Positions 11,378 through 47,439 of a stretch of 64,000 nt of DNA are shown piece by piece. The DNA is taken from the NCBI GenBank assembly GCA_000004985.1, contig GG738878.1, one strand, 5' to 3'. A program made the position numbers and the translations under genes. Below the pieces are notes generated by a model. It ran no database searches and had not been told where the DNA came from. It saw only the letters and a list, made by a program, of their open reading frames with translations. Each line of letters opens with the position of its first letter. Position 1 is the stretch's first letter. Source of the DNA: Naegleria gruberi (taxonomy: Eukaryota).

Positions 11378-12634
11378 ATGAAAAAACTTGACTGCTCTGT
11401 GCAAAATTATTCCTGGGGAAGAAAAGGAAGCGAAAGTACAGTTGGAATTTTGTACGCCAACACAATAGTGGAAGGAAAAATTGATGAACAAAAACCCTAT
11501 GCAGAATTATGGATGGGAACTCATCCAAGTGGCCCATCTAAAGTAAAATTAGATGATCAGTCAGGTTCGGAATTACTTTCTGAATTTTTAAAACGAAATG
11601 TAGAACAATACTTTTCAAAAGAGGAAGTGAATGAATTCTTTGAAAAGAAGGGATATGAATTTGCTTCATTACCTTATCTTTTCAAAATTTTATCTGTAAA
11701 TCAAGCCCTTTCCATTCAGGCCCATCCTGATCAGACACTCGCTCAAAAATTGTTCAAAAACGACCCAGAACACTATAAGGATCCTTACCACAAACCAGAA
11801 CTATGTTGTGCATTGACAAAGTTTGAGGCTCTTTGTGCATTTCAAAATTTGGAATCAATTGTGGAAAATATCAAAAATATTGAATCGCTCCAATCACTTT
11901 TGAGAGCTCAAAATAATGAATTAATTGACTCTATTCTAAGTAATGATGTAAAGGATTCATCTCAAGATGATAGAAAGATTATTTTGAAGAGTTTATTTAA
12001 AAGTTTGATGACATCACCAAAATCTCTCGTAGAAGCCCATCTTCCAAACCTTGTAAAGAACCTCCAAAATTCTACCTCATCCAGAGATCAATTAATTCTT
12101 AGACTTTACAAAGATTATGGAAATGATATTGGATGTTTCTCAGTTTATTTCCTTAACCATGTTGAGTTACAACCTGGGGAAGGATTATTCTTAGGTCCAA
12201 ACGAACCTCACTCTTATCTTTATGGAGATTGTGTGGAGTGTATGGCATCATCTGACAATGTTGTTAGAGCAGGTTTGACACCAAAATTCATTGATACTGA
12301 AACACTTATTGAAATGTTGACGTACGACGATCATGCATTAGAAAAGATGAAGATGGGTGGTGAAAAAGTCAACCAATTTGAAACTTTATATACCACACCT
12401 GTTTCAGAATTCAAGGTTCAAAAAATTGTCTTGTCTAAAGGGGATAAGTACACTCTTACTCCAAATGCTATTACTATTGCTATTGTTATCAATGGAAGTG
12501 GTTTAGTGAATGGTGAAAACTCCAAGAAAGGAGATGTACTTCTTTTCCCTTTTAATTCCAAAACAGATCTTGAAAATTCTCATGAGGAATCTATGGAAAT
12601 ATTTGCTGCTACAACTAATATTCAAGCTAATTAG
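11378..12634 (+). CDS. Mannose-6-phosphate isomerase (phosphomannose isomerase, class I).
   Basis: Contains MKKLDCSVQNYSWG, YAELWMGTHPSGPS and LSIQAHPD, which are hallmark PMI class I zinc-binding motifs. The ORF track starts at 11351, but the PMI-conserved N-terminus begins at the ATG at 11378. Confidence 0.9.
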   Translation: MKKLDCSVQNYSWGRKGSESTVGILYANTIVEGKIDEQKPYAELWMGTHPSGPSKVKLDDQSGSELLSEFLKRNVEQYFSKEEVNEFFEKKGYEFASLPYLFKILSVNQALSIQAHPDQTLAQKLFKNDPEHYKDPYHKPELCCALTKFEALCAFQNLESIVENIKNIESLQSLLRAQNNELIDSILSNDVKDSSQDDRKIILKSLFKSLMTSPKSLVEAHLPNLVKNLQNSTSSRDQLILRLYKDYGNDIGCFSVYFLNHVELQPGEGLFLGPNEPHSYLYGDCVECMASSDNVVRAGLTPKFIDTETLIEMLTYDDHALEKMKMGGEKVNQFETLYTTPVSEFKVQKIVLSKGDKYTLTPNAITIAIVINGSGLVNGENSKKGDVLLFPFNSKTDLENSHEESMEIFAATTNIQAN

Positions 12635-14112
12635 TCATATTCGAAAAAATCTGTGTTTGGCATTTCTGGCAAGCTTTCAGGTGCTTCATCATATGTTTCT
12701 TTTTTGATTTGAGTAAAGTTATTTGTGAATGTTAGAAATTTGTTGGATTGAACAGTTTTCTGATCCTCATGTTTTACTTTCTTTAACAGTTCATCAGTGC
12801 TTAATTGATTAACTGGAAAGTAAGAAATACACTTTTGTAGAAAGTGGGGCAAAGGCTTTCCACAACAAATGCAAAAGGAAGTAGATAACTGAGCTAAATA
12901 CTGGAAGAATTGATGCTCATTCTCTTTCCACGTTTGAAATTTTATATCTTCTCCTATCTTGAAATTTTTAAAGTAGTTCAAAGTCTTTTCAATATCTTCC
13001 AAGTATTTGAGATCATAGTTTGATGTGTTCATATTTGGAGAGTTTAAAAATGTTGAAAAGTTTTCAATATCTGAAATATAGGTTAAAAGAAATTTCTTCA
13101 AATTAAGTAAATGTTGAATTCTATCTAGCCTTTTCATTTCGCTTTCCTCTGTTTTAACTTGGACTGAAGATAGCAATAATTCTTGTATTTGAGATACTAG
13201 ACTTCTGAAGAATTGTTCAATCTTAGGTATCAGTAATTGACTAGCCAATAATTCACTTCGTTTTTTGTAAATAAATTCCAATCTTTGAATTTCTTCACTA
13301 CTGTTATTGTTTAATGTATTCGGTAGACTGTCTTTGCTTTTTTGTTTAATAAAATGAAATGTAAATGGTTTGATGAATGAGGCATTAGAATAAAGAAAAC
13401 TAGGGCTTTCAACTTTGGGGGAAGAAATGTTTTGGCTTCTCGAGTATGATGAAGATATAAATGGTTGGGGAAGGAGATTGCATGTTGAGACAGAAAAGTT
13501 AGATGTCTTATCAACAAAAGGAGGTAGGATAAAGCTGTTTAGGGATGGAGAATGATTTTGGGATGGAGAGTATCTTACAGGAGTAATATTAGATTCTGAT
13601 AACTGTTTGTAGTTACCATTGTTTTGTGGTTTAGCTTTAAGGGCAGTAGATTGTTGGGAAACAACATTACTGAAAGAGTTGGTTTTGAAATGAATTTGGA
13701 GAAGTGAGCGAGGTTGAGAGGGAGGAAGGTGTCGAATAAGAGCAGAATTAGGTGTTGTAGGAGTGTTTGGGTTAATCATTTTCGATGACGATGATGGAGA
13801 GGTAAAACTGGAAATGTTGTTGTCATCTCGTGGAGGAATGAGTACTTGTAATTTCTTTTCCTCCAGAAATGAAGCAGAAAGTTTTTGTTTTTGATAGCTC
13901 CCTACTGTATTTTCAGTCAATTTCTTATCAGGACTTGTGTTATTCGTGAATAAGTCCCCTCCGCTCGCATGCATGTTACTGTCCACTTCACTGCAATCAT
14001 TAAATTCTAACATCTTCTTCCAAGATGTGATTGATCCACTATCTGTTGATGACTTATCATAAAACTGATTGTTGGGCGAATTACTTTCCGTAGATGTGTA
14101 TGGATTGTACAT
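12631..14112 (-). CDS. Hypothetical S/N/P-rich protein. Its stop codon overlaps the PMI stop by 4 nt on the opposite strand.
   Basis: 493-aa ORF with low-complexity S/N/T-rich N-terminal two thirds and a more structured C-terminal third. No recognisable domain. Confidence 0.4.
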   Translation of the reverse strand: MYNPYTSTESNSPNNQFYDKSSTDSGSITSWKKMLEFNDCSEVDSNMHASGGDLFTNNTSPDKKLTENTVGSYQKQKLSASFLEEKKLQVLIPPRDDNNISSFTSPSSSSKMINPNTPTTPNSALIRHLPPSQPRSLLQIHFKTNSFSNVVSQQSTALKAKPQNNGNYKQLSESNITPVRYSPSQNHSPSLNSFILPPFVDKTSNFSVSTCNLLPQPFISSSYSRSQNISSPKVESPSFLYSNASFIKPFTFHFIKQKSKDSLPNTLNNNSSEEIQRLEFIYKKRSELLASQLLIPKIEQFFRSLVSQIQELLLSSVQVKTEESEMKRLDRIQHLLNLKKFLLTYISDIENFSTFLNSPNMNTSNYDLKYLEDIEKTLNYFKNFKIGEDIKFQTWKENEHQFFQYLAQLSTSFCICCGKPLPHFLQKCISYFPVNQLSTDELLKKVKHEDQKTVQSNKFLTFTNNFTQIKKETYDEAPESLPEMPNTDFFEYD

Positions 14113-15042
14113 TCCTTCTCAATGATCATATTGTGAGAGTATTTCAACAAGGTGTGTTACTTTGATTTTGATCCGAGTTGATATACAAGTAAATTTCAAT
14201 ACTTGTGCAATGGAAATATTAATTGATCAAATTAAATATTAATTTCGGTTAAAAGGTTTTCTTGTTGAAAATCCACTTCTAAACAATAAACTATTGCAAT
14301 AGATGTTAATTCTCTTTTCAAATATAATATTTGCACTAGATGAAAACAATAATAACTTGGAAGATGATCTGATCAGAAGAACTCTCACAACAACAATACT
14401 GTCAAAAAACAACAATTGGGTCACAGAGTAAGAAAACTTCTCAGATCTTATCTAGAAAACAGTAACTAACTACAAACAAGAAACTATTACAACAACAAGA
14501 GAATGAACACTCTTCACAGGGAGTTTAATGGTTTTTTTTAAGCGGAATGAACAAAGGCCTTTGTACGGTTCCTCCTTTCAATCTCTTCTTTTTGTGTCTG
14601 ACAAAGATCACAAACAAGGCTCTCTGAAAGAGCGAAAATTAAATTGATACTGTGTTGGTTAGATATTAAAATGAATGAGAGTACCCTGTTGTAGTTCAAA
14701 TGTTGGAAGGATACTTTTCTTACGATCTTACTTTGTCGATCTGTTGGATATCAAACAAAGATTGAGATCTTAATGTTATCAGTGTTTGAAAATTTGTAAA
14801 TCTAGATCAAAAGATATGTGAAGAAAGATTTGTTGGTCTCTTGATAGATCAAAATACAAAGCCCTAATTAGTGCGTTATCAACGTTGCCAATCATTTCTC
14901 TATGTTTGTACCTAAGGGTTTTATCTTGATTGGGTAATTTGAGGGTAATCTGAGATTTTGTATCTTTTCTTTAAATTTCATTGTAATCAATAGAACGAAC
15001 ATTAAGAACCAATTAATTTAAGTGAGCTCTATATTTTTCCAA

Positions 15043-16816
15043 CTATTGAATTATTGTTCCAAAACATTGGAAAGAGCTTTGAATGGCATTTTTCTTACAT
15101 AAACCAATATCAATTATCATATTCTGCTTTGGTTCTGTATAAGTTGTAAAGTAGGCATTCGTTTTAGGGGATTTCTCTAACTTGTATATTACAAGAGGAG
15201 TCGGAGCTTCATTATCAACAATTGAATTGCATGGAATCTCTGAGAATGAAGCTAACATCCTTAATTGACCATATTTTGCTACCTCGTTTGTAATTACTGA
15301 TAAATATGTTTTGTTTACATCTTTCATCATGTCCACATATTCCTCCAACAATAAATTGGTATTATTTGTTAAAGTCTTACTTAATGACTCCAATGTTTTG
15401 GTAACTAAATCCAACTCGTTTGATAGATCCAAAATGGATAGTACAGATGGATCATATTTTATCCTTTCCTTGAAATACTGAGCTAACAAAAATTCCGTTA
15501 ATCCTCCTCCAGGTAGAACATACGGATTGGAAACAAAGAGTTTGAGACTCGTTTGGAGACCTTTCATCACTTCTTCCAATTCTTGCGTTATCAGTGGAGA
15601 GTTCGAGCACAGTACAACAGAGTATACGTCCGACATTTCATTGCTCACATGAATACAGCTTGAGTGGTTTAAATGATAAATTATAATAATAAAAATCTTA
15701 CCTTCTACCTCCAATTTCCACTTCAGATACAGATGTCAAAGAACCAATCTCAGAATTGGTCAACTCGGTAAATATTGAGGACAAAGGGGTGCAGCCAGAG
15801 ATTTTCTTGAAATTTTCAAAATTGAATACTGAAATTCTTTCTAAACAGAGAATACCCTCATTTGCTAGAATTAATTGAACACTTTTTTCAATTACTTTTT
15901 GAGAAACGACAAGTTGAATTCCCAACTTTTTCCATTCCTTGATACAATCTCTTAGTTTGGAAATAAATTCCTTAGAAGTTGTTTTTTGAGGAACCAACTT
16001 AACTGTTGCTCCTATATTACTCTCACTATATTCTTCCATTTTCTTTGCTTCTATATATACAGATTCCTTTAAAAGTACAACTTTGACATTGGTTAAATCT
16101 TGTTTTTTTCTCGATTTTATGATGTGTGGGAATGGCATGTTAAAGTAAAGACCATTCACTACTCGGCTATCTGAAACCCTTACATTATCTCCATTGATAT
16201 GATGATAAATGAAATCATTTCTCGCTCCAAATCTATTCTTACTCATTTTAGGTAGAATATCACATAATAATTTAAGGGACAACATTGTCATGTGCTCCAC
16301 TTCATATTGAGATAGATCCAAAAGTTTATCACTTCTCCATTTCAATATAGATAATTGTTTTAAATTATTAAAATCCACGTCTACCACTAATTTGTGACTT
16401 TCAACAAATTCCTCAATCCACTGAGGAATAATATTCTGCAATAGATAAGTCAATTTAAATAAAGAATAATTTCCGGTCTTGTAATTAATAAATAAATTCA
16501 ATATCAAGTAACCAAAACAACTTCCATAACTTCCACATTGTATGAGATGAGACTTGAGAAAACTTTTAATAATCTTCATCACAACCAATTCTTCATCATT
16601 AAATTCAGTCCTATCAAATAATTCAAATTTTAATAATCCCGAAGAACAATTTGTCATACAAATATCAGAATCTCTTTTTAATTCTTTTCCAATAATTGTA
16701 ATACATCCATTAGGTCCACAATTAGTAAAAAGTCGAAGTGTTTCATAGAATACAGAAAGGGGAGAACCTTTGTATTTTGATCGACTTGTTGAGGGTGGAG
16801 TTGTATTATTGAGCAT
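15043..16816 (-). CDS. Divergent group-II chaperonin (TCP-1/CCT family)-like protein, reminiscent of MKKS/BBS-type chaperonin-like proteins. Two exons on the minus strand: 16816-15702 and 15658-15043.
   Basis: Intron 15659-15701 (GTAAGA..AG) fuses the two ORFs in frame (..VEIGGR|S|CIHV..). It has the CCT-like N-terminal GPNG..ITIIG..MTNCSSGLL and the C-terminal VLPGGGLTEFLL equatorial-domain motif. The canonical GDGTT ATP-binding motif is degenerate (CGSYGSCFGYL). Confidence 0.55.
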
Positions 16817-16840
16817 TTTTTTAAATTGTATTCAAATTGT

Positions 16841-18142
16841 TTATTCCTTCTTTGGATACTTGAGCCCAGTCAATGAAGGTTTAATATAAATTGGACAAGT
16901 AAGAACAGCATCCGCACCAAAACCCACAGCACATGTAACTACAATATTGTAGCTAACTTGAATGAGTTTAGAGTTATTGATAGATGCCATCCAAAAAGCT
17001 CTATTTTCAAAATTATCATATTGTTCAGAGTTTTCAGCTTTTGACTCTATAGAACGATAGGATGGAATTTCAAAAGTAATCTTGGTTTCATAATTTTCTT
17101 CAGATAAAACAATCTTATCAATTTGTTTCTCAAACATTACAATATTTTCTTTTTCCTCAGCTGGTTTGCTCTCGAAAAACTTTAATCCACCTTCTTCCTT
17201 TTCCTCAGTTTCAATATGTCTAAATTCTTGAATAAGAGCAACATGGATGCTGTTCACAGTCTTGGTTGATTGATTATTAACTTGAAGACTGAAAACGATA
17301 TCATCGTCATACATTCTGAAAGTATTTCTAGCAAAATTACATCCAACCTTCAGCTTTTTTGCACTAAATAAATACTTTTTAGATGTTTCAAAGTGCATGG
17401 TTGATTTTCCAGAAACTCCTTCAATAGTAGGATAGAGTTCACTCACAAAGAGAATGCATGATTTTTCAATCTTACAAGTATGCAAAGATTGTTCATTACT
17501 AACAACTTTCTTTTCCTTTGGATGATGAGCAGCAACAACTGATGTATGTGCATTGTGTTCATGGTGCTGATGATTAACTTTAATTTCGTGTTGTTCCGTA
17601 ACTAAGAAGGCTTTAAATTTGTAACAAATAGAATATTGTGTATCGTGTCTTTCGTGGAATGTGCTAGTAGGAATTCTATCTGGGAGAGTATAGGAGAATG
17701 GATACGAATGTTGTCCAATATCTAAATCTTCATTCATAAAGTCTTTAATTAACATATAATCCACAAAGTAGACATGTTCTTTTACAACTTCATATTCATT
17801 GCTTTCATTCTTTTTCGAATGTCTTTCAAAAGCTTTACATCTCAAAACAAGTTTTTTAGATACAGATGAATCCAAAGTACTTGTTAATTTTACATCAATA
17901 AATCCGGATACACAATCATGTTCCTTGATAAATTTCTTGTCATTATTTGAAACTCTGATACGAATAGAACCTCCGGAAGTAATTGTATTCTTAAATTTAA
18001 AACGTTCCAGAGTAGATTGAGGAATTATTGATGATGGTGTGATGGGAACATCTTCAACTGTAACAAGAATATTATCTGGTGGTGGAGAGTGTCCAAGATC
18101 AAAGCCATTGTTGACGATGTGCTCATCCGATGCAGAGTTCAT
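16841..18142 (-). CDS. Arrestin-domain-containing protein (ARRDC/Aly-like).
   Basis: An arrestin-N-like beta-sandwich (SGFIDVKLTSTLDSSVSKKLVLRCKAFER) followed by the hallmark YPFSYTLPDRIPTSTF motif, then a second arrestin-C-like half. A His-rich insert (HQHHEHNAHTS) is present. Confidence 0.65.
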   Translation of the reverse strand: MNSASDEHIVNNGFDLGHSPPPDNILVTVEDVPITPSSIIPQSTLERFKFKNTITSGGSIRIRVSNNDKKFIKEHDCVSGFIDVKLTSTLDSSVSKKLVLRCKAFERHSKKNESNEYEVVKEHVYFVDYMLIKDFMNEDLDIGQHSYPFSYTLPDRIPTSTFHERHDTQYSICYKFKAFLVTEQHEIKVNHQHHEHNAHTSVVAAHHPKEKKVVSNEQSLHTCKIEKSCILFVSELYPTIEGVSGKSTMHFETSKKYLFSAKKLKVGCNFARNTFRMYDDDIVFSLQVNNQSTKTVNSIHVALIQEFRHIETEEKEEGGLKFFESKPAEEKENIVMFEKQIDKIVLSEENYETKITFEIPSYRSIESKAENSEQYDNFENRAFWMASINNSKLIQVSYNIVVTCAVGFGADAVLTCPIYIKPSLTGLKYPKKE

Positions 18143-24863: not shown

Positions 24864-24967
24864 TTGTTTAAATTAGTTTTATTAATAAAGATAACACAAA
24901 CAATAAATTGTAAATAAGAGAGTGTTTTAGATTGAACAGGGCTTAGTATTTTTTACGAACAATGTAT

Positions 24968-25040
24968 TCCCCCTTAGCTCAGTCGGTAGAGCGTCAGACT
25001 GTTAATCTGCAGGTCGGTGGTTCGAGCCCACCAGGGGGAG
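24968..25040 (+). tRNA. tRNA-Asn (anticodon GUU).
   Basis: Cloverleaf folded by hand. Acceptor TCCCCCT pairs with AGGGGGA, D-arm is GCTC-AGTCGGTA-GAGC, anticodon loop CTGTTAA gives GTT, and the T-arm is GGTGG-TTCGAGC-CCACC. Discriminator is G and no CCA is encoded. Confidence 0.9.
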
Positions 25041-26465
25041 TAATGTTTTATTTTCAATATCTTAATTTATTGTTATTATTCATTTCTGTTTTCACTCCCT
25101 TGTAGTGCAGTCTGCCTTTTGGTGGAATGTTGAACCGAAAAACAATTTGAAAATTCATTAGAAGAAGCATTAATCTTATAAAAGGAAGGTAGTTGACTGT
25201 CCGTTTAAATACACTTGAATAGGATACAACTTTTTTTCGTTGTTTGTAACTTCATGGTTGACAATCAAAGTATTCGTGGACTCCACAACATTGGAAAGTC
25301 TTGGACTGGAAAATCTCTTATTGTTAGGCAGTGAAAATGACAAGAAGGCTTACCTGAAGTCTTAATTTCCTTTTTCCATACACCATCAATCTAATGCGTG
25401 ACAATGGATTCAACCAAACCCTCTGTTTTCAAAAACCTTTTCACACATTCACATAAATAAAAATCTTATAAACGAGCTCGTGGGATCTTCTCTTCATCCC
25501 GTTTCACCAGCTCTTTAAGATACATTCCCCATCTTCAGTACTATATTTTACAACAACAATTATAGCTAAAATCGCTTTAATTCATTTAGGAAGATCATTG
25601 GAGATTGTCCAACAACAGAAATATTTTTTAATTTTAATATTTATTTAATAATCTAAATTGTTAATATCCTGATTTAAACAAACACTTTTAAACTCGTTCA
25701 ATAATTTTTAGACTTGTAGTGAAGAGCAACTCACGTACAACTCCAACCAACATCTTATTTGAAAATCAAAAACGATACCGTACTCAAACAAATAAGGAAA
25801 AGTTGGCAAGAAATCATTTCGAACAACATCAAAATTGTATTTAATTACAACCTTTTGTACAGAGTTTCGTTTCATCAGTTTACACTCTATCGACATCACT
25901 CGACCCGATATAACTGAATTGTATTGTTGGCGCCATTTTTTTATTGAATTAGCTGAGTGGTACAAGAAGAAACTGTTCGGGCTTTTCTCAACCTGTGCTG
26001 CCATTTGCTTTTCAGTTTGCCTGTTGTTTGTGTTCTCTCTCTTTGCGCATCTCTTAATCGTAATTGACGTACCGCCAAGCAAAGCACTGTATTGATTTAG
26101 AAAACGACTGTGCTGTTTGTTGTTGTTGAGGTCCAGAGTTTATTGTTATCACTCCTCAACTACCTCCTTAGTGCTTGCTCAAAATCCAAAAAAAAACACT
26201 CCATTGGCTTATTGAACTGAACAGCGGTTTCAAAGTTCATTTTCTTTCAACTTCCTTACTGCCCTCATTCCTCTTGAAATCACATTCCTACCAATCCGAA
26301 GATTGGATTAATAGCGATTGTTGATTTGCCTTATATTCCCTACAACAACACACCTCTTCTACAATATTACTACCAACTACCAACTACTTCCATTATTAAT
26401 TCTTTTAAGAATATTTAGTGATCATCGACTTTCCTCATCAAACTCTCATAACCTCCAATTTAAGA

Positions 26466-32549: not shown

Positions 32550-35500
32550 TTATTTGTTCATTTTGTGTAGCACTGATATCAATTCGTGAGTACTGTCAAC
32601 ATTCAACACAATATCCTCATATTGATTACCGAAACTGAACCAAGATCCTGAACTGACAACCCTTATTACTACACTTTCCTTCTCTCCAGGTTTGACTTGG
32701 AAAATACTCTTACTGTCATAGGACCAAACAATCTTAATATTTTCCATAATTACTTCTGTTGGAGGTGGATTTCCAACAGAATAAACCTTATCGCCTTCAG
32801 TACATTCAACTTTAAATAAGTGTTTATCACCAACGAGAATGATTGCAGGAGTGTTTGTGAAGAAATGTTTCACATAGGTGGTTTCTCCAAATGATGGATC
32901 TTTTCTAATCAAATTGTACACATAATTTCCGAAAGCAAGATTCTGGTCGTACGGGTTTAATTTCTTATCTGCACCAACATATCTTGGGAATCTCTTTCTG
33001 GTAACATTGGCATCTCTATCGAAATATTGGGTTGTGTTTTTGAGACCTTCACTTGTTTTGTAGACGAAATCTAAAACACCAGTTACAGGCTTAACTGGAA
33101 TTCCAATTATTCCTTTTCCAATGCCTTTGAAAAAACCTGAAACACCTTCCTTGCTTGCACCTTCGATTGGTTTAGTAAAAATACCAGTACCTGCTTCAAA
33201 TAAACCGAGAGAAAGTGATTGTGCACCTGATAGAATTCCTTCACCAATGTGTTTAGGTCTCTTGCTCAAATGATTGGCCTCCTTTCTCTTAACTTGATAG
33301 TCTTCATCCATAGTCAAAAGACTAATACCATTACTAATTGATTCGGTTACCTTTGATGCTGTATTAAAAGTGCCATGAATTGAATGCTTGAAGAAAGAAG
33401 TAGTTCCCTTGGCCAGTCCTAGTGTAAAATCTTTTGGAGATTTAGTAATTCCTTCCATAGGTTCATAGAAAAGATCGTAGACACCCTTATCTATATCGTT
33501 GAATAGACCAATAGGATTGCCTAAAATATCAAAGCTGCCGAGTATTGCAAACATTTCCTGAATAGCATATCTTGTGTAATGAGATTTCACATTTTCCATG
33601 AGTTGGAATCTAGAAGTTAGAGGAGGATGGTTTAGAATTAAAGCATTTAGTCTGATTGGAGCTTCGTCGACATTCATACTCAATCTTGCTCCTAATGTTC
33701 TCAGCAAAATTGAAAGATCAGAATCTGATTCTGTAGAAATTTCATTGAAGACAAAGCTTAAATCGACCTTGATTGGATGCAATTCAAAGTATTCAAAATA
33801 GATCATTCTATCACTTTGAGGATTTGAGTAAATATTGTGGTCAAAATCAGGTATGATTTCATCGATTTCAGATTCTGCACTAGTATCTATTTTAGAAAGA
33901 ACGATTTGTTTTTCATTATTAACCTTCTTTCCTTTCAGGGATTTAACCATTTCAAATACTTCATGGGCAAATCTAAAGTCAACAGAAAGCTTAGCCTCTT
34001 GCATCAATAATGAAAGATATGGAATGTAATCAAAATCTTTTTCTTTGGTATCTATAATCATACTAAAGTGAAGGAAATCTCTTAATCCAAGTTTGTTGGC
34101 ATTTGTTAAAAGTATTGGGAATGTGCAATTTTCCATTTGATTATCAATACTAAGTCTATTCATCTTGAATTCCAAAAACTGTTTGTTCTTATCGGTCACA
34201 TTAAAGTTAAATGATAAACTTTCGGCTAGCATGTAAAGAAGTTCTTTCTGGAGATGGTTAATGATAGATATTCCAATTCCTTTCAAAAAAACAAAGGATT
34301 GAATCAAATCAGTTTGGGACTCTTCTTCTTCATTTTCTATTTCTGGAAGAACTTCTTGTTCTGAAAATTTCTCTAAAATACTGATAACTCTTGTGTAACC
34401 TCTGTAGGTAGTCAAGCGAATTAATACCTTCTTTTTAAGTTGGCTGATCGTAATTATCTTACTCTTCTTTACCTTGTCGATATCAATGGCACCTAGCTTG
34501 TACTTATCAGCAAGGGTAACATGAATAGAATGTTTGGATTTGATATCTGGTGCAGTATAAGGAATAGTTTGGTTAGGACTAATTGAAATGTACTCGCCAG
34601 TGTAAACTTGTGATACAGATATAGAGTGTGTTGTCTTGTTCACTATAAAGTAAGGGGGTAAAGCTGCCCTTGTGAAATGTACATGAACACAGCCATTTGT
34701 TTCAGTAATTTTTGCAGTTATAAAGTTACCATTAACTATTAATGGAATTTCACCAAGTGTATCAATAGTAAATGGTGTTGACCACTCTGATAATACATCT
34801 CCTGTCTTTAATCGAACACATATCATAGGAGTCTTCTTTCTGTAGAAGTGCATTAAAAGTGGATTGTCAACTTTGATAGTTTCCATCTCTTCAGCATTCA
34901 TTGTCCAATAGAAGTGGCATGGTTTTGTTTGTTGAATTGAATAAATGTGAGTCTCATCCCCAAATTGTTTAGCTTCAATTTCCAATGATTTGTTGTCTTT
35001 TGAATACAGTCCATTCACAAGTAAATATCTTGGTGTAATGATTACTACCTTTGTTCTCTCGTACTTTTCATTAGCCAACGTTACAAATGTTCCCAATTTG
35101 AGTGGTACTTTGCTTTTATCAGAAGCATGCTGTAACACCACCTCAGAGGATGCACCAACAGAATCGATAGAAAATGGTGGTGATGAAAATCCATCACTTG
35201 TTTTAAGGACAACCTTCTTGCTAAATATTAGAGATTTTTCATCTGTATAATTAAACATTAGAGATTCCTTATTATTTACGGTTGTTTTACAACCAAGTAA
35301 ACAATTTTCTTTTGATGAATCCTCAACCTCTATTGAAAAGTCAGTGTAATTCATGATCAAATAAGGACAGTGTACAACAATTTTCAAATAGGTATTGGAA
35401 GTACTTGTAACATCATATTTGAGATTCAAAATTCTTCCTGTAGTGTAAAAATTGGAAAAATTGAGAGATATGTCTTCTTGTTCTGTACTGGAGTTTGAAT

Positions 35501-38500
35501 AAATTAAATTAATATCCTTGGTTTGCCATCCTTGAATAATGGTTTGAATCCATAGTTTAGGTTTTTGCATATCAATCTTGTAAACAAAATGTGTATCACC
35601 TTTCTTAATGAATCCATTATATTTAGCAATTTTGATATTTTCATCCTTAGTGGAAGAACCAAAGAGTGCAAACTGCAAATCTTCTTGAAGTACATTTTGA
35701 ATTGCAAGTGGTGGTATAATATTAATCTTAGTCATCTTATTATGACTGGATTTAGAGTTCAAAATGCAATAAAAGTGGTCTTTCTTATTTGTTGCGTGTT
35801 TGTTCTGAGTAATAATGGTCTTTGCATGGGATTTACGAAGTGTAGAAATGGAATAAAGAAGAGGATCATTTCTTGACCACTTGTACTCACTATGTTCACT
35901 GTTGAGATCCTTGCAAGGTCTTAGAGTGAGAGTAGCATTTTCAACAACCAAATTAGTTGGTAAATAAATGGATTTAAATGGAGAGAGGACCCCAAGAGAA
36001 ACGACTTGTTCACCAATGAAACAACCTAATTGCCAAACTCTATCAGTCTTGTTTCTAATCTTACATCCACTGTGTACAATAATAGTTTTTCTCTTGTTCT
36101 TGTCTTTGATTTCAATAAATACATGATGTTCCAATTGTCCAAATTCTTTGTTAGATACCAGTATTGAATATCCGTGGATTCCATCTTTGTTAGCAAGAAC
36201 CTTTATGATTGTTCCTTCAATATTAAGATCTAAATATTGGTTTCTATCAGAATAGGAAGGAGGGAAAGAGAAATGGATTTCCTGATCTTGCTCAAGAGCA
36301 GTAACTTCGTTGGTAATCTTGAAAGAGGCTTTCAAGCCAGATTTGTTGATTATATTAAATGGTTCAAAGGTAACTGCCAACTCCTTCTGTTTTACAGTGT
36401 CTTGTTCAAGCTCTTTGATCCATGCTTTGGCAGTGCTCACCACAGTTTCCAAAGCAGAATATGTTATATTTAGGTTGATAACATCTTCACATTCAATTTG
36501 AACGATGTGGTTTGGTGATTCCTTTTGGTTTTGATATACGCAATGGATTGGAATTTTGTTCTTTTCAATTATTGGTTCCCATTCTGCATTCTTAAAATTG
36601 TAACAATCACCATAGGCAAGGAATTCTAAATAGGCAGAAATATGATTATCCTGTGGTCCCAAAGACTTGATAAGTGAGTTTAACTTAAATCCTCCCAACT
36701 GCAGTTTCACAATTGGAATGTCAAAACCACTCAGGTCATCCACAACCAATATACTAATAGACTTTAAATCTACAATAATCTTGTTAACGAGCATCTTTGG
36801 AAGAAGCTCATCACTGATCATTTCCTTAAAGTCTTTTGCAATTATAGATTTAGGTTTTGCTTCTGCAAGAGCACACTGCTCAATTATTTGGGTAATGTCT
36901 TCTTCAACTAAAATGGATGGTTTTTCCATTTGTCTCTTGAATTGTTGTGCAATATTATAAAACATTTTAACATCAAAGTAGGAAAGTCTGGTATTACCAC
37001 CCCTCAATAATAAAACTTTGATTATTCGTTCTTCCTTATCTTCTTGACTGGAAATTCTCATAATGTCTATATCTACATCAGTACTATCTACAAGAGGAAG
37101 GGTTCTATTTCCATGCTCAACCAAAATACTCAATCCTGATATTTTGAAAATGCCCTTCTCAGAGAGACCTCCTTCAGTGGATTTAAAGTCAATAGAACTG
37201 CTGAATTTAAGAACAAGAAGTCTACTGTTGACATCGCTTGAAGCTTCAGGTATTACTAGTTGTGGCGTTCCAAAGTCACCCTTCAAAAGCAGTGATGAAG
37301 AGGATGGTTTAAGTAACTTATTATTTTCTTCCAAAACAACTTCATATTGGGAAATATCGTCAATATTTGTTCCAACCATCAGTAGTTCAGCTAATCTGTC
37401 ATTTTGGAAATATTTGGTATCCGAGAAGAAGTGTCTAAAATCTAGTAATAACTCTGGAATAATTACTAGTTTAGGGTTGCTGAGCTTTAGGTTTACAGTT
37501 TCTACCAAGTTTGTTTTGTCATTCTCATAAATCATAGAAAAACAACCATTTGGATCCGAGAATTCAATAAAATTACTAAATACGTTGGTTGTATCTTGTC
37601 TCATATCAGATGCAATGATAGATCCCAAAGTCATATTCATGTGGATACAATCATTGATATCAATCTTGTTATTAAGTTGAAAGTTTGATACAGATAGTTT
37701 AGCAAAGTTTGAACCATTACTCTTTAAAATTAAAAGTGAAATATTTGGAGCCGTAACATAAACATCTGTTATAATAATATTAGAAGAAAATTTTTCAATT
37801 GTCTTTTCTGAAGAAACCCTCTTCAAAAGGAGATCTTTCTTTTTTCTTCTAGTAACCAATGTTCCAATAGATTTGTAGAATTTTCTCTCCTCATTAACAT
37901 CTCTCATACCATCTCTGATATTACCATTAATGAAGTCAAAAATGATTTGATACTGTCTGTGTGTAAGATTAAAGTTAATTTCTGAAAAATCAACAAATAC
38001 CACTTCCTTGGTTATATCAAACTCATTATTGTCTTTTGTTTTGGTGAAAGGAGTAATAATTGGTTTTTTGACATCAACTTTGATGAAAATATCAGAAACA
38101 ATTTTTTCGTGATCGTTCGATGCATCTGAAATAAATTCTAGCATGATATCGTTCAACAATACACTAACATGATCGATGGGAGTATCTGAATTTCCTTCTA
38201 AAAAGTTTTCTACAACCAAATTTCCCAAATGAGCAAGGAAGTGGTCTTTAGATTGAAAGTTGGATGGGAAAATCACCACAGGACTTGTTATTTTGATATT
38301 TAGCTTAATTTGGTTGTTAATGATTCTCTTACTAATTATATCCTTTCCCTTTAGGCCAACTTCAGCTAACTTGTTTCTAGTACTTTCTCTTTTCAAAGCA
38401 TTTAACAGAGGGCCTGATATGTAGTTCTGTGCTTTGTGGTAGAATCTTTGAATGTGCACATATTTAATGGCACTGGTATCCATAGATAAAAATTGTCGAT

Positions 38501-41500
38501 AATTGATTGCTCCTCTTTGTATCAAATCTCTATCACCTTCTTTCTCAGCGAAAAGTTCAGAGGCAGATGCACTGGAGAAAACATATTTGTAATTCAGAGT
38601 GACCACAGAACCTTTGGTCTGATCATAGAGGCCAAGAATTTCCTTGTAAAGAGATGTAGGTTCACTAAGATCCAACAGTTGGATATTTCTTAAACTTCCA
38701 GAAATCGCAACGCTATCTAAATCAATTAGGCATGATATAGTGGTACCAGCATTGATTAATAATTGGGCTATGGTTATACCATTGCTTAGGATAAATACAT
38801 TGGACTCTCCAGCTGTAATTGATGTTGTAAGAAGTTTGCAACTTTCTTGATTACCATCCAATAGCATTTTGGCTATTTCACTAAACTGTTGACCAGCATC
38901 TACTTCATCCTCATCAGGAACATAAGAATAATAATTAATCTTGTTAAAGGCTGATATTTGATCGATAATATCTTGCAAGTCGTAACCGTAGTCAATAAAA
39001 GTAGAGAGAATGGAGGGCTCAACAAAACATTGTAAGCTCTTGAACTCGATTTTGAGTAACATTTGAGAAGAAGGATCATAAATTAAAGAGGTAGGATCTG
39101 TAGATCTGGTGAATGAAACATTGACCAAGTGTTCTTCTGGATTGTTTTCATCTTCTATTGATTTGATAATGTAAAATTCTCTATCTTGCAAAATTTCTGA
39201 TTTTACGTTCATAGAGTGAAGGAATAATTGAATGTTGGTATCCAGATTGTGGTACTGTCGGAAATAAGCGTTCAGATGGGAAAAGTGAATAGAAGCCAAG
39301 TTGAAACTTTGATGAGAAAGAGTCAGTATGAATGAATTCAACTTGAATCTTATGGCTATGAGTACACCTTGTTTTTCTTCCTCCTCATCATCTTCATCGT
39401 CAGAAAAGCTTGCTTCTTTCAAAATATCAGTAATATCATCAATAAAGAAGCTTGTATCGAATGAGTAAATAAACATTCTTAGGGTTGTGATCCAATTTTC
39501 TGTTTCATCCAGAGATGAACATTTGAATTGAATAAATTTCGTTTGATAACCCTTCTTTTGTGGAAGTTCCAATATAAATGTATTTTCTATAGTGTCTGAT
39601 TTGTGTACTTTGGTATGCTTGTTCAAATGTATAATAACATGAAGAAGTCTTGTATCTTCTGTATAAATAAATATCTTCTTAGTACTGCTCACTTCTACGA
39701 AGTAAGGCACAAATTCATTATCTTCATGATTGACTTGTAGAGTTCCCATAATTTTCAAGTCGTTAATTTTCTCCTTTGTACCAGTTGGGTTTTGTTTGAA
39801 TTCTGCTACTAATTGTGTCAACTTTGAAACAGCAAGCATACTCTCTTTGGAAAGAATAAAGTTAATCTTTGGAATATCAAGCAAGAGTTGAACTTTTTCT
39901 TCCACGGTTTCTTCTTTGTGTTTAATAGCACTTGCTGCCAGTGAGGTCTTTTCTAAAATAACATCATATGTAGTAATTTGTTGTTGGTCTGTCAGATATC
40001 CAATAGCATTAATATCTTTAGGAACAACAATTTCCATATTTTCCAGATTGATATCGAACTTTTCTCTGGAAGCTATGCTAGTATCTTTACGCAGTTTGAG
40101 CAATCCAAAATCAAGTAAAAGGAATCTACTGTCAGGATCTGTTGGATTCCAAGGAATGATGATTTGTGGAGCCTTGATATCGAAGGTTAGATCCACAGTG
40201 GTGTCATCTTGCATAAGAACTTCCTTAATCTCCTTTTTGGCCAATTTAGATACTTTCTTGATATGCCTCTTGGCTTCTTTTTCTAAGCGTTTGATATTGA
40301 CATTGTCAAAGTATAAGAATGAAAGTATTCTTTGGAAAAATTCAAAGTTAACTACAATATCGATTTGATTAAGAGCTACCGTCAAATAAATATCACTCTC
40401 TTCATTCTTTTTCTCCAAAGTAGATCGCTTCTCAATGTACAAAGAAAGAAGGTTAGAGGAAGTTTCATTGTACCTTTTAGATTTTGTAATAATTTCAGGA
40501 TAAAGAGTTTGCTTGAATCTATCGAATAATGTTAAATTACCCATAGAAGAACAAACTTTGAATGCTTTGTGAGGTAAAATTTGAATATCTGATACGAATC
40601 TATCTACTTCAAGTTCTAGTAAATCATTTCTTTCGTGATAGACCCTAAATGCTACCTTGGCCAAATCTACGTGGACTCTAACCTTTACATAGTCATCAGG
40701 TATTTCAACGGGTTTCTCTTCATAACCTATAGATTTGTACAGTTCTTCTTTCACCTTATCAGAAAGCTCAATAGCCTTTGCTTGTAGTTTATCTTTCGAG
40801 AACCAGCTTGATTTCTTTTTATGCTCTTCGAAATTCTTTGCTTCCTGATTAATTTCCTTATGTGCACACTTTCTGAAGAACAGAACTTCCTGCAGTGTTC
40901 TTTGATCTTCCAGCTCAGCTAATCTCTTCTCTTCATCTGGGCTGAGCTTTTGCTTGGTTACCCACGGAACTTTTACATGAGTTTTGTAAAGCTTGACGTA
41001 TTCTTTACAATGTAAGCTCAAAATATTTTCATAATGTTGCTTTTTCTTGTCCATTTGTCTCTGAAAATTAACACATTTGAGGGCATACTTCCAATAAGAA
41101 ATGGGGTCAAATTTCTCAGGTCTAAAATGTCGGTATTGGCTTTGGATTGAATAATTTGTAATATATTCCACAATTTTAAAAATGGAATTATACTGATTCT
41201 GACTCAAACACATCTGAATATCATGCACAAAGTGAAAATCAAAATTAAAAACTGGTCTTGTAAAATCTATCCCTGAAGCGGAGAGCTTTTGCATAGTAAG
41301 CTTCAAAAATCCGTCTACTGGTTCCAACAAGTACACTCTGTCATTGGCTTTGATAATGCTCTGTATTATGTCTCTATCGCAAACTTTCTTTTCTATACAT
41401 GTATTTACAAAATCTTCTTTCTCTGTCCAAGGATTCAAATATATCGCCAGCTTGGACATGGTCAATAATTTATAAGTTAATTCTCCTAAATTTTTCTGAA

Positions 41501-43653: not shown

Positions 43654-43895
43654 AAACAAAACTCACCTCTTGACGCCTCTTTGCAAATCTTTCATATAAC
43701 CGAGTTGCTAATTTTGTAATTATTTAGAAGAATCTCCACCTCAAAGAACTACATTGAGCCCACAACTACTGCTTCGACTCTAGCCAAATTAACACCAACA
43801 AAAAAAAGCACCAAACAAAATGGTTTCCGACACCAATAACAACAATCAGAGTTGTGCACAACAATTGGATCGCCGACAATTTTTTCATTAAGAAT

Positions 43896-46126: not shown

Positions 46127-47439
46127 ATGCCTAAACTTGCTTTGGATTTTTCAACAACTGCCTTTGACTCATATGTGCAAGATTTCAAAAGGTACACCTC
46201 TCAATTTGTGGATTTTATGTGGAGAGTTTACGAAACTTATCCAATATTGAGTATTTCACTTGGGGCATATGGATTGTTTTTAATGTTGAAAAAGTTTGTA
46301 TTTGGAGGAAAGTATTGTCCAGAGTACTTGATAACCACCTCTGAAATGTCTGGTAAAGTAGCCATTTTGACGGGTGGTAATAGTGGATTAGGATTCAGTC
46401 TTGCACAACAATTGGCTTGTAAAGGAGTAAAAGTGATATTGGCAGTTCGAAATCCTCAAAGAGGATTAATGGCCAGGTCAAAAATTGTACACTACATTAA
46501 GAAAGAAACAAATATAGACCCACCTCTCGATTCTGTTCAGGTGTATCATTGTGATTTATCGAGCCTGGAGAGTGTAAGGGAGTTTGTAACTAGTGTACAA
46601 ATCATGCTTTCCAGTAATCCAAAAGTGAAGAAGGTAGTTAATCAAGTTGGTATAGAATTGGTCACTGAAACCCAAGAGACCTATCCAGTCATTGATTTCC
46701 TTATCAATAATGCAGGAAGTATCTATCCAACTCATAGGTAAGTTTCATTATTGGCTCATTTGCTTATGCAACACATTAAAGCGTTTCTGCAAATGGAATA
46801 GAGGCACATTTTGCTGGAAATTATTTGGGACACTATTATCTTACACAGCTCTTGTTGAAGAATGGCCTAATGAAAGACAATTGCAGAATTTTGAATATTG
46901 TGTCCTCTCCCTCTCTATTTTCTGATGAAATTTACACAAGCCATAGTTCGCTTTATGAATTTTCATTATTGGATTTATTGGAGGATGGTAAATTGAAATT
47001 TGATCCTCAACAGCTCTATATGAGAAGTAAATACGCTCTCTACCTCTTTTCAATTAAACTACAGAGAGAGTTGAATCAAAGAAACATACATGGTCACTTC
47101 ATACCAAGGCATGCACAAGTATTCAGTGTATTTCCAGGAGCAACCCAAACCTCTTCAATGGTCAAGACTTCCTCACCATTTGCAAGAATTTTTACGAAAC
47201 CTTTGGAATTACTTCTTTTGAAGAGTCCTTGGCAAGGTATTCAATCTGCCTTGTACTGCTTATTAGAACACTCAAGTAAGCTTAGGGGAGGTGAATTTTA
47301 TGCTGAGTGCAGTCACTCACCACAACCAATAACTCAATCAGATGAACAACGCATGCTTCAATTATGGAATGTCTCTCATAACTTGATTCAAAACTTTGAG
47401 AAAGCTGCTTCATCTCATGGATCACACAGCCTACCTTGA
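46127..47439 (+). CDS. Short-chain dehydrogenase/reductase (retinol-dehydrogenase/WWOX-like), membrane anchored. Two exons: 46127-46737 and 46782-47439.
   Basis: TGGNSGLGFSLAQQLACKGVKVILAVRN (TGxxxGxG Rossmann motif). NNAG is followed, across intron 46738-46781 (GTAAGT..AAG, phase 2), by SVSANGIEAHFAGNYLGHYYLTQLL..RILNIVSS and a YxxxK-type catalytic region. An N-terminal hydrophobic anchor is present. Confidence 0.8.

What the first reader, a model, noticed from the sequence alone, without database searches (positions are those of the whole stretch)
15043..16816. Divergent chaperonin-fold protein (MKKS/BBS-like) lacking the canonical ATPase signature
The spliced product has the N-terminal GPxG..hTNxxxxIL and C-terminal VLPGGG..E motifs of group-II chaperonins. 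The GDGTT P-loop equivalent is degenerate, and overall similarity to CCT subunits is low. The only well-known divergent chaperonin-like proteins are the ciliopathy factors MKKS/BBS6, BBS10 and BBS12, which assist BBSome assembly in ciliated organisms. Such a gene in an aciliate, dictyostelid-like genome would be unexpected. It would suggest either a relic of an ancestral ciliary toolkit or a repurposed CCT paralogue.
Basis: inference. Interest (0 to 1): 0.5.

Follow-up and report, generated by a model that had tools for sequence, protein, structure and literature searches.

The report
Naegleria MKKS/BBS6-like chaperonin gene
This is a real, selectively maintained gene for a divergent MKKS/BBS6-type chaperonin without ATPase residues, but it is ordinary: the genome is Naegleria gruberi, which builds flagella, and public databases already name the gene.

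Summary
On the minus strand, 16816..15702 plus 15658..15043, joined across a 43-nt GT..AG intron, encode a 576-aa protein. It has a full-length group II chaperonin fold (Pfam Cpn60_TCP1 E=5e-29; AF2 pLDDT 79.5; TM about 0.65 to Mm-cpn/TRiC). GPxG and GGG are kept. GDGTT has become GSYGS, and the catalytic Asp is Gly.

The MKKS/BBS-like reading is supported. In a scan of 1.84 billion representatives, the best hits outside Naegleria that carry names are animal "MKKS-like" proteins. Thermosomes rank about 70th. A metazoan-MKKS HMM beats a thermosome HMM by 60 bits, whereas a real CCT8 loses by 302 bits. An NJ tree puts the protein inside the MKKS-like clade in 200/200 bootstraps.

The "aciliate, dictyostelid-like" premise is wrong. 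The product is 100% identical to two NCBI Naegleria gruberi entries, both already named "McKusick-Kaufman/Bardet-Biedl syndromes chaperonin". They are the two halves of this gene. Naegleria is an amoeboflagellate.

The intron position, the synteny and purifying selection (dN/dS about 0.2) are shared with two other Naegleria genomes.

The likely role, inferred by homology only, is a non-hydrolysing adaptor that works with CCT in BBSome assembly. Only the merged gene model is new. I could not test MKKS against BBS10/BBS12.

The parts
15702..16816 (-). Exon 1. Codons 1-371 plus the first two bases of codon 372. Covers the N-terminal equatorial, intermediate and apical domains.
   Evidence: ORF and translation. 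Identical to NCBI N. gruberi partial model P0001 from M54 onward. Residues 20-371 align with N. lovaniensis P0002 and with P0003.
15659..15701 (-). Intron of 43 nt, GTAAGA...CAAG, phase 2 (AG|C = Ser372).
   Evidence: The exon 1 frame stops 2 codons into it. The same position and phase hold a 48-nt intron in locus L001 and a 53-nt annotated intron in N. lovaniensis L002. The thermosome alignment runs across the junction without a gap.
15043..15658 (-). Exon 2, with the stop codon at 15043-15045. Covers the C-terminal intermediate and equatorial domains.
   Evidence: Identical to the second NCBI N. gruberi partial model P0004, from its Met to the end. dN/dS = 0.20 between two other Naegleria species.
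16703..16720 (-). C33-G-P-N-G-C38, the conserved GP(x)G nucleotide-contact motif.
   Evidence: Aligned with LGPKGM of thermosomes and YGPxGR of MKKS. Invariant in the three Naegleria sequences.
16631..16657 (-). M54-TNCSSGLL-62, the degenerate equivalent of (V/I)TNDGATIL.
16520..16534 (-). G95-S-Y-G-S99, the degenerate equivalent of the GDGTT phosphate-binding loop. The Asp is lost.
   Evidence: Thermosomes have GDGTT and MKKS-like proteins have xDGG(L/W)F. Naegleria has GSYGS or GFYGS.
15890..15901 (-). Q306-K-V-I309. This matches the QK(V/T/L)I(H) form of the MKKS-like family, against QKGID in canonical group II chaperonins.
   Evidence: Q306 is invariant across the 46-sequence family alignment. 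Motif table.
15559..15561 (-). G405, at the position of the catalytic Asp (Mm-cpn D386; xDAL motif).
   Evidence: Residue-by-residue alignment with thermosome 3j1b and the multiple alignment. It is Ser in N. lovaniensis and non-Asp in all MKKS-like sequences.
15502..15510 (-). G422-G-G424 of VLPGGGLTE, the retained GGG nucleotide-pocket motif.
   Evidence: It is GSG in N. lovaniensis and in the L001 species.
15121..15366 (-). Expanded, poorly modelled segment of the C-terminal equatorial domain, roughly residues 470-551. 82 aa lie between the anchors, against 40-45 aa in thermosomes and CCT8.
   Evidence: Segment lengths: metazoan MKKS-like proteins have 72-120 aa at the same site. AF2 pLDDT is below 50 for residues 481-550.

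Best explanation
This is the Naegleria gruberi gene for an MKKS/BBS6-type chaperonin-like protein. It is a two-exon gene giving a 576-aa product.

The protein keeps the three-domain group II chaperonin fold and part of the nucleotide pocket (GPxG, GGG). It has lost the residues needed to hydrolyse ATP: the Asp and both Thr of GDGTT, the Asp of TNDG, and the catalytic Asp.

By homology with vertebrate BBS6/10/12, it most likely does not form its own folding ring. It would act as a non-hydrolysing adaptor that binds beta-propeller BBSome subunits (BBS7/BBS2) and couples them to canonical CCT/TRiC. That would permit BBSome assembly when the amoeba differentiates into a flagellate.

Shown here: the gene structure, fold, motif losses, family affinity, conservation and selection. 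Inferred: the partners, the BBSome-assembly role and the absence of ATPase activity.
For: Organism and prior annotation:
- 100% identity to two NCBI N. gruberi entries on one 395-kb contig, both named 'McKusick-Kaufman/Bardet-Biedl syndromes chaperonin'.

Fold:
- Pfam Cpn60_TCP1 E=5e-29.
- The AF2 model built from 46 sequences has pLDDT 79.5 and pTM 0.79.
- Foldseek matches Mm-cpn and human TRiC subunits over about 575 columns, TM 0.62-0.68, 14-17% identity.

Family affinity:
- A profile scan of 1.84 billion representatives gave only 511 hits at E<=1e-3. The best non-Naegleria hits that carry names (E 1e-23 to 1e-19) are 'MKKS-like' proteins of Branchiostoma, Amphiura, Strongylocentrotus, Mytilus and Glandiceps.
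- Further hits come from flagellate-forming protists: Ceratiomyxa, Diplonema, Flectonema and Mesostigma.
- In single-sequence phmmer, MKKS-like proteins score about 52-80 bits and thermosomes 46-50 bits.
- A metazoan-MKKS HMM built without Naegleria scores 176 bits and a thermosome HMM 117 bits. A genuine CCT8 scores 134 and 436 bits.
- NJ bootstrap: the MKKS-like clade including Naegleria separates from thermosomes plus CCT8 in 200/200 replicates.
- Shared derived characters with MKKS-like proteins are the lost catalytic Asp, the QKVI motif in place of QKGI, and the expanded C-terminal equatorial segment.
- A vertebrate-type MKKS (P0029) shows the same PDB hit pattern, with thermosomes ahead of CCT.

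Functional gene:
- Intron position and phase, and the gene order amidohydrolase-arrestin-chaperonin-...-PMI, are conserved in two other Naegleria genomes.
- dN/dS is 0.19 for exon 1 and 0.20 for exon 2.

Mechanism in vertebrates:
- BBS6-BBS12-BBS7-CCT forms a complex that stabilises BBS7 and BBS2 (PMC3370246; PMC5534436).
Against: - No BBS10, BBS12 or CCT1-7 sequences could be obtained. MKKS-specific orthology, as opposed to 'BBS-type chaperonin' in general, is therefore untested.
- The comparison set was chosen by similarity to the query.
- The distance tree could suffer long-branch attraction between fast-evolving sequences.
- Only about 20% identity to metazoan MKKS, and the placement within the clade is unresolved (sister to Metazoa in 51/200 replicates).
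- I did not check here whether N. gruberi has BBSome genes. That rests on my own knowledge of the genome paper.
- Naegleria has lost even the P-loop Asp that metazoan MKKS keeps. N. lovaniensis also lost GGG (GSG). Its biochemistry may therefore differ from that of animal MKKS.
- No expression, localisation or interaction data were available.
Confidence: 0.72

Rival explanations
1. It is a BBS-type chaperonin but not a strict MKKS/BBS6 orthologue. It could be a single descendant from before the MKKS/BBS10/BBS12 duplications, or a BBS12-like member that also lost its ATPase.
For: The position within the MKKS-like clade is unresolved (51/200 as sister to Metazoa). Naegleria groups at 147/200 with unnamed protist sequences P0020 and P0036. 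The literature treats the three BBS chaperonins as monophyletic (PMC2846930), and BBS12 also lacks the hydrolysis motif.
Against: Every named top hit is MKKS, and none is BBS10 or BBS12. The length of 576 aa, with one large C-terminal expansion, fits MKKS better than BBS10 or BBS12, which carry three to five insertions (PMC5534436). The human lengths (MKKS about 570 aa, BBS10/12 above 700 aa) are from my own knowledge.
Confidence: 0.2
2. It is a repurposed chaperonin paralogue with a non-ciliary role, for example in cytokinesis, microtubule organisation or the nucleus, and is unrelated to BBSome assembly.
For: Naegleria lost more nucleotide-site residues than animal MKKS. MKKS in mammals also has reported centrosomal, cytokinesis and nuclear roles (references cited in PMC7598677, and PMC10074162). 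Nothing in the window links the gene to cilia; the neighbours are arrestin-like, amidohydrolase and PMI genes.
Against: The named non-metazoan homologues all come from lineages that I know to have flagellated stages: Ceratiomyxa, diplonemids and Mesostigma. This is the distribution expected of a cilium-linked gene.
Confidence: 0.06
3. It is one of the eight canonical CCT subunits, and its ATP motif looks degenerate because of a missed intron or a mis-splice.
For: The public N. gruberi models are indeed mis-split at the intron.
Against: The degenerate motifs lie inside uninterrupted exon 1 and recur in N. lovaniensis and a third species. The thermosome HMM scores 117 bits, against 436 bits for a true CCT8. 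CCT hits in the PDB are only E about 1e-5. The bootstrap split from CCT8 and thermosomes is 200/200.
Confidence: 0.01
4. It is a decaying relic or pseudogene.
For: The catalytic residues are lost, and the public annotation is fragmented.
Against: The reading frames are intact in three species, with a conserved intron position. dN/dS is about 0.2 in both exons. Both exons are about 43% identical to the L001 species, with neither decaying faster.
Confidence: 0.01

Closest known systems
MKKS/BBS6 (McKusick-Kaufman/Bardet-Biedl syndrome chaperonin-like protein) of animals
   Same: It has the group II chaperonin three-domain fold. It is similar in length (576 aa against my recollection of about 570 aa for human MKKS). 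The GP dipeptide is conserved and the catalytic Asp is lost. It has QKVI in place of QKGI and an expanded C-terminal equatorial segment. MKKS proteins are the best named sequence hits.
   Different: Identity is only about 20%. Naegleria also lost the P-loop Asp that MKKS keeps (xDGGLF against GSYGS). It has an 8-10 aa insertion after the TNDG-equivalent motif. It lacks the His-Pro of QKVIHP and the CxCG feature of the metazoan C-terminal insert.
BBS10 and BBS12
   Same: They belong to the same divergent branch of CCT-related proteins, which assist BBSome assembly together with CCT (PMC3370246, PMC5534436). BBS12 likewise lacks a recognisable hydrolysis motif.
   Different: BBS10 is reported to keep a functional ATP-hydrolysis motif. 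Both carry three to five insertions. No BBS10 or BBS12 appeared among the named hits. A direct comparison was not possible with these tools.
Canonical CCT/TRiC subunits and archaeal thermosomes (group II chaperonins)
   Same: The overall fold is the same (TM 0.62-0.68), the family profile aligns end to end, and the GPxG and GGG motifs are present.
   Different: GDGTT, TNDG and the catalytic Asp are missing. Identity is 14-17%. The protein falls outside this group in the HMM and tree tests. It is unlikely to hydrolyse ATP, and whether it can form a ring is not known.
MKKS-like proteins of other protists (Ceratiomyxa, Diplonema/Flectonema, Mesostigma, unnamed environmental eukaryotes)
   Same: They form the same clade in the NJ tree, show a similar MKKS-minus-thermosome HMM score difference (+22 to +133 bits), and have lost the catalytic Asp.
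   Different: Those checked keep the DGG(L/W)F form of the P-loop. Only P0020, P0036 and P0007 show a Naegleria-like [DS]-[YH]-G replacement.

Membership tests
Group II chaperonin superfamily (Cpn60_TCP1) | Significant match to the family profile and a three-domain equatorial-intermediate-apical fold. | tested here: met
   Pfam E=5.1e-29. The family profile against the PDB gives E=4e-68 end to end. The AF2 model has pLDDT 79.5, and Foldseek gives TM 0.62-0.68 to Mm-cpn and TRiC.
Canonical CCT subunit (CCT1-8) | Intact ATP-binding and hydrolysis motifs: GDGTT, TNDG and the catalytic Asp. | tested here: not met
   The equivalents are GSYGS, TNCS and G405, and the same losses occur in two other Naegleria species.
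Canonical CCT subunit (CCT1-8) | Confident assignment to one of the eight subunit families. | tested here: not met
   CCT hits in the PDB have E of about 2e-5 to 7e-3, with no preferred subunit. The thermosome-type HMM scores 117 bits against 436 for a true CCT8. The protein is excluded from CCT8 plus thermosomes in 200/200 replicates. Only CCT8 was available as a full sequence.
MKKS/BBS6-type chaperonin-like proteins | The nearest sequence relatives are MKKS orthologues rather than CCT subunits or thermosomes. | tested here: met
   The best named non-Naegleria hits in the 1.84-billion-representative scan are 'MKKS-like'. The HMM difference is +60 bits. NJ support is 200/200.
MKKS/BBS6-type chaperonin-like proteins | Conserved Gly-Pro nucleotide-contact dipeptide together with a degenerate hydrolysis motif (Mukherjee et al. 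2010, PMC2846930). | tested here: met
   G34-P35 is present. The P-loop and the catalytic Asp are degenerate, and more so than in animals, because the one Asp that MKKS retains is also lost.
MKKS/BBS6-type chaperonin-like proteins | Family-specific insertions in the equatorial or intermediate domains (two are reported for MKKS). | tested here: inconclusive
   One expansion lies at the same C-terminal equatorial site (82 aa against 40-45 aa), but its sequence cannot be aligned with the metazoan insert. The other extra segment, after TNDG, is Naegleria-specific.
MKKS/BBS6-type chaperonin-like proteins | Orthology to MKKS to the exclusion of BBS10 and BBS12. | not testable with these tools
   No BBS10 or BBS12 sequences or profiles could be retrieved.
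MKKS/BBS6-type chaperonin-like proteins | Occurs in an organism that builds cilia and encodes the BBSome. | tested here: inconclusive
   The organism is N. gruberi, an amoeboflagellate (PMC4819266). The presence of BBSome genes in its genome was not checked here and was not found in the held literature. It rests on my own knowledge of Fritz-Laylin et al. 2010.
MKKS/BBS6-type chaperonin-like proteins | Binds CCT subunits and BBS7/BBS12, and is needed for BBSome assembly. | not testable with these tools
   This is a biochemical property, known only from vertebrates (PMC3370246).

The most novel reading that the evidence does not exclude
[quoted passage not shown] Together with the diplonemid, Mesostigma and amoebozoan homologues found here, this would mean that chaperonin-assisted BBSome assembly is ancestral to eukaryotes. 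That differs from the 2023 proposal that it is an innovation of Opimoda or Metazoa (PMC10074162). It would also mean the assembly works without nucleotide turnover by the BBS-type subunit.
Probability: 0.4. Interest if true: 0.35.

Novelty: already known. Interest (0 to 1): 0.15.

Why it matters
The practical value is small. The two adjacent N. gruberi database entries (319 aa and 197 aa) are halves of one 576-aa gene and should be merged. The correct model restores the GPxG motif and the whole C-terminal equatorial domain.

For evolution, the finding adds a well-supported Discoba example to the evidence that BBS-type chaperonins are older than animals. A 2013 paper, which I could not read, already made that point. 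A 2023 survey still places their origin in Opimoda.

For mechanism, the conserved Naegleria protein has lost the catalytic residues of GDGTT and the catalytic Asp, and in two sister species GGG as well. This is a natural hint that these proteins work as adaptors for CCT rather than as ATPases.

Tried and rejected
- AF2 with the three Naegleria sequences alone gave an unusable model (pLDDT 37). It was replaced by the 46-sequence run.
- The afdb50 fold library, which would have named MKKS, BBS10 and BBS12 models, was not installed.
- Word-indexed profile searches with the Naegleria alignment and with the 46-sequence alignment returned only Naegleria proteins plus one fungal CCT8. No named BBS10, BBS12 or CCT1-7 sequences were obtained.
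- The PDB holds no MKKS, BBS10 or BBS12 chain.
- I first thought Naegleria and MKKS shared a deletion in the apical lid segment. Measuring the segment (32-33 aa in Naegleria, 26 in MKKS, 28 in thermosomes) showed they do not, so I dropped the claim.
- Mukherjee & Brocchieri 2013, van Dam 2013 and Fritz-Laylin & Cande 2010 are not held.
- Literature searches for Naegleria BBSome content or an MKKS mention found nothing explicit.
- The window itself holds no ciliary gene and no RNA family other than one tRNA.
- The two equal-length 204-aa ORFs at 46.1-47.4 kb are not tandem duplicates.
Full report
**What is in the sequence**

The feature lies on the minus strand. An ORF starts at the ATG at 16816 and stops at a TAA two codons after a GTAAGA donor at 15701. 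A second ORF in another frame runs to the stop at 15043. Removing 15701..15659 (43 nt, GTAAGA...CAAG) joins them in frame as AG|C = Ser372. The result is a 1731-nt coding sequence and a 576-aa product.

**Is it a chaperonin?**

Yes.
- Pfam Cpn60_TCP1 matches at E=5.1e-29, against a gathering score of 34 bits. Only residues 202-575 are covered, so the N-terminal equatorial domain is too divergent for the generic profile.
- Against PDB sequences the protein alone hits archaeal thermosomes at E=3e-12. It hits CCT subunits only from E=2e-5 upward, with no preferred subunit.
- A 46-sequence family profile aligns with group II chaperonins from position 16 to 563 (E=4e-68).
- An AlphaFold2 model from three sequences was useless (pLDDT 37).
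- A model from the 46-sequence alignment is good (pLDDT 79.5, pTM 0.79). Its low-confidence parts are residues 1-11, 260-277 in the apical lid region, and 481-550.
- Foldseek against the PDB matches Mm-cpn and human or yeast TRiC subunits over about 575 columns, with TM 0.62-0.68 and 14-17% identity.

**Motifs**

In a multiple alignment with thermosomes, a CCT8 and MKKS-like proteins:

| Canonical motif | MKKS-like proteins | N. gruberi | N. lovaniensis |
|---|---|---|---|
| LGPKGM | YGPxGR | C-GPNGC | CGPHGK |
| (V/I)TNDGATIL | TSxSxxLL | MTNCSSGLL | MTCCSSGIL |
| GDGTT | xDGG(L/W)F | GSYGS | GFYGS |
| catalytic Asp (xDAL) | non-Asp | G405 | Ser |
| GGG | GGG or GAG | GGG | GSG |
| QKGID | QKVIHP | QKVIEK | QKLIDK |

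- The GP dipeptide is kept.
- The catalytic Asp position was also read residue by residue against thermosome 3j1b.
- The L001 species also has GSG in place of GGG.
- The segment between two C-terminal equatorial anchors is 82-85 aa in Naegleria and 40-45 aa in thermosomes and CCT8. It is 72-120 aa in most metazoan MKKS-like proteins.
- Naegleria has its own 8-10 aa insertion after the TNDG equivalent.
- A shared lid deletion that I first suspected is not there.

**Whose genome is it?**

The first protein search returned P0001, which is 100% identical to the product. P0001 is NCBI 'McKusick-Kaufman/Bardet-Biedl syndromes chaperonin [Naegleria gruberi]', 319 aa, on a 395-kb contig. A second entry with the same name, P0004 (197 aa), is 100% identical to exon 2.

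P0001 starts at M54 and ends '...EIGGRR', so it reads into the intron. P0004 starts at the first Met of exon 2. The public annotation therefore splits this one gene into two partial models.

Naegleria is an amoeboflagellate that builds basal bodies and two flagella de novo (PMC4819266). The premise of an aciliate, dictyostelid-like genome is wrong.

**Support for the merged gene model**

- N. lovaniensis P0002 (580 aa, 42% identical, 97% coverage) is collinear across the junction: '...MGRSCIYFTNE...' against '...GGRSCIHVSNE...'.
- Its genomic locus L002 has an annotated 53-nt intron at exactly the same codon and phase.
- A third Naegleria species (locus L001, a Logan assembly) has a 48-nt GTAGGT...CACAG intron at the same place. 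Its unspliced ORF call, P0003, ends '...MGRR' just as P0001 does.
- The gene order amidohydrolase, arrestin-like, chaperonin-like..., phosphomannose isomerase is the same in all three genomes.
- Between N. lovaniensis and the L001 species (79% amino-acid identity), Nei-Gojobori dN/dS is 0.19 for exon 1 and 0.20 for exon 2.
- Identity between N. gruberi and the L001 species is 43.5% in exon 1 and 42.3% in exon 2.

The gene is intact, spliced as proposed, and under purifying selection. It is neither a relic nor a pseudogene.

**Which kind of chaperonin?**

A profile of the three Naegleria sequences was scored against 1.84 billion cluster representatives. It found only 511 proteins at E<=1e-3 and 100 at E<=1e-10. 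That is a very small share of this large family.

The named non-Naegleria hits, at E of about 1e-22 to 1e-19, include:
- 'molecular chaperone MKKS-like' or 'McKusick-Kaufman/Bardet-Biedl syndromes putative chaperonin' of Branchiostoma, Amphiura, Strongylocentrotus, Mytilus, Glandiceps and, lower down, Oratosquilla;
- proteins of Ceratiomyxa, of the diplonemids Flectonema and Diplonema, and of Mesostigma, plus an MMETSP transcript.

Of the 30 clusters I could look up, about 17 carried a source name. None was named BBS10 or BBS12.

Further tests:
- BLAST clustering splits the 150 listed hits into one MKKS-like group of 110, one thermosome-like group of 35 that carries GDGTT, and small groups.
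- In single-sequence phmmer, the 50 or so best MKKS-like proteins score about 52-80 bits and thermosomes 46-50 bits.
- HMMs were built without any Naegleria sequence. The metazoan-MKKS HMM scores N. gruberi at 176 bits and N. lovaniensis at 156 bits. The thermosome HMM scores them at 117 and 113 bits.
- A genuine CCT8 (P0181, Russula) scores 134 against 436 bits. Other protist MKKS-like proteins show the same positive difference, +22 to +133 bits.
- A Scoredist/neighbour-joining tree of 60 sequences (497 columns) separates the MKKS-like clade, including Naegleria, from thermosomes plus CCT8 in 200/200 bootstraps.
- Naegleria groups with two unnamed sequences, P0020 and P0036, in 147/200 replicates.
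- Metazoan MKKS is monophyletic in 175/200 replicates.
- The position of the Naegleria group within the clade is unresolved, at 51/200 as sister to Metazoa.
- A vertebrate-type MKKS (P0029) also hits thermosomes ahead of CCT subunits in the PDB, as the Naegleria protein does.

**Limits of the classification**

- I could not obtain BBS10, BBS12 or CCT1-7 sequences. The fold library that would have named them was unavailable.
- The word-indexed searches did not reach beyond Naegleria.
- The comparison set was selected by similarity to the query, and the tree is distance-based.

What is established is membership of the divergent MKKS-like or BBS-type branch and exclusion from canonical CCT and thermosomes. 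Strict orthology to MKKS, rather than to BBS10 or BBS12 or to their common ancestor, is not established.

Two soft arguments favour MKKS. The length is 576 aa, with one large C-terminal expansion. The hydrolysis motif is lost, whereas BBS10 is reported to keep it, and BBS10 and BBS12 carry three to five insertions (PMC5534436; PMC2846930).

**How it most likely works (inferred)**

In vertebrates, BBS6, BBS12 and BBS7 associate with CCT subunits, regulated by BBS10. They stabilise BBS7 and BBS2 until the BBS7-BBS2-BBS9 core forms. The chaperonin-like proteins themselves are thought neither to fold substrates nor to form rings (PMC3370246; PMC5534436).

The Naegleria protein keeps the fold but has lost even more of the catalytic site. 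The most economical reading is a non-hydrolysing adaptor that hands beta-propeller BBSome subunits to CCT during flagellate differentiation.

The fold, the motif losses and the conservation are shown. The partners, the timing and the lack of ATPase activity are inferred. That N. gruberi encodes the BBSome is my recollection of the genome paper (Fritz-Laylin et al. 2010). It was not verified here, and the held literature gave nothing explicit.

**Comparison with what is known, and novelty**

The gene is already in GenBank under the MKKS/BBS name. Reviews already state that BBS-type chaperonins occur in 'ancient eukaryotes' (Mukherjee & Brocchieri 2013, as cited in PMC5534436; that paper is not held).

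A 2023 survey nevertheless describes them as mostly metazoan, with BBS6 candidates only in Mastigamoeba and Malawimonas. It concludes that they 'arose early in Opimoda', and Naegleria is not mentioned in its text (PMC10074162). The Naegleria, diplonemid and Mesostigma homologues seen here argue for an older origin. This is probably not a new point.

The only new item is the corrected single-gene model.

**Verdict**

The surprise rested on a wrong guess about the organism. This is an ordinary, already annotated ciliary-toolkit gene in a flagellate-forming amoeba, so interest is low.

Noticed in passing
window 16817-16840: Only 24 nt separate the TAA stop of the upstream arrestin-like gene (16841-18142, minus strand) from the ATG of the chaperonin-like gene. 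Its promoter must therefore lie inside the arrestin coding region, or the two genes are co-transcribed. The spacer is 78 nt in the L001 species and 62 nt in N. lovaniensis.
   Followed up: partly
window 15043-16816, compared with NCBI N. gruberi entries P0001 and P0004: The public annotation splits this gene into two partial models, 319 aa and 197 aa, both named as the MKKS/BBS chaperonin.
   Followed up: yes
window 14113-15042: A 930-nt stretch with few ORFs lies downstream of the chaperonin gene. The syntenic downstream ORF is 779 aa in L001 but only 493 aa here (12631-14112, no Pfam match). The gap probably holds 5' exons of that gene.
   Followed up: no
They share with Naegleria a P-loop replacement of the form x-[DS]-[YH]-G-x-x-F, instead of the DGGLF of other MKKS-like proteins. 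P0020 and P0036, the two included in the tree, group with Naegleria in 147/200 bootstraps. They may be further heterolobosean or otherwise related protist members.
   Followed up: partly
window 46127-46741 and 46825-47439 (+): These two ORFs are each exactly 204 aa. They are not duplicates (22% identity). They look like the two exons of one short-chain dehydrogenase, with GGNSGLG...NNAG in the first and a YxxxK-type motif in the second.
   Followed up: partly
window 24967-25041 (+): A single tRNA-Asn (GTT) gene. It is the only Rfam or ARAGORN hit in the 64-kb window.
   Followed up: yes
window 32550-42080 (-), 43854-46067 (+), 54360-56537 (-): An intron-free 3176-aa VPS13-like ORF, a hybrid histidine kinase with a receiver domain, and an adenylate/guanylate cyclase-domain protein. 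No ciliary gene is present in the window.
   Followed up: no
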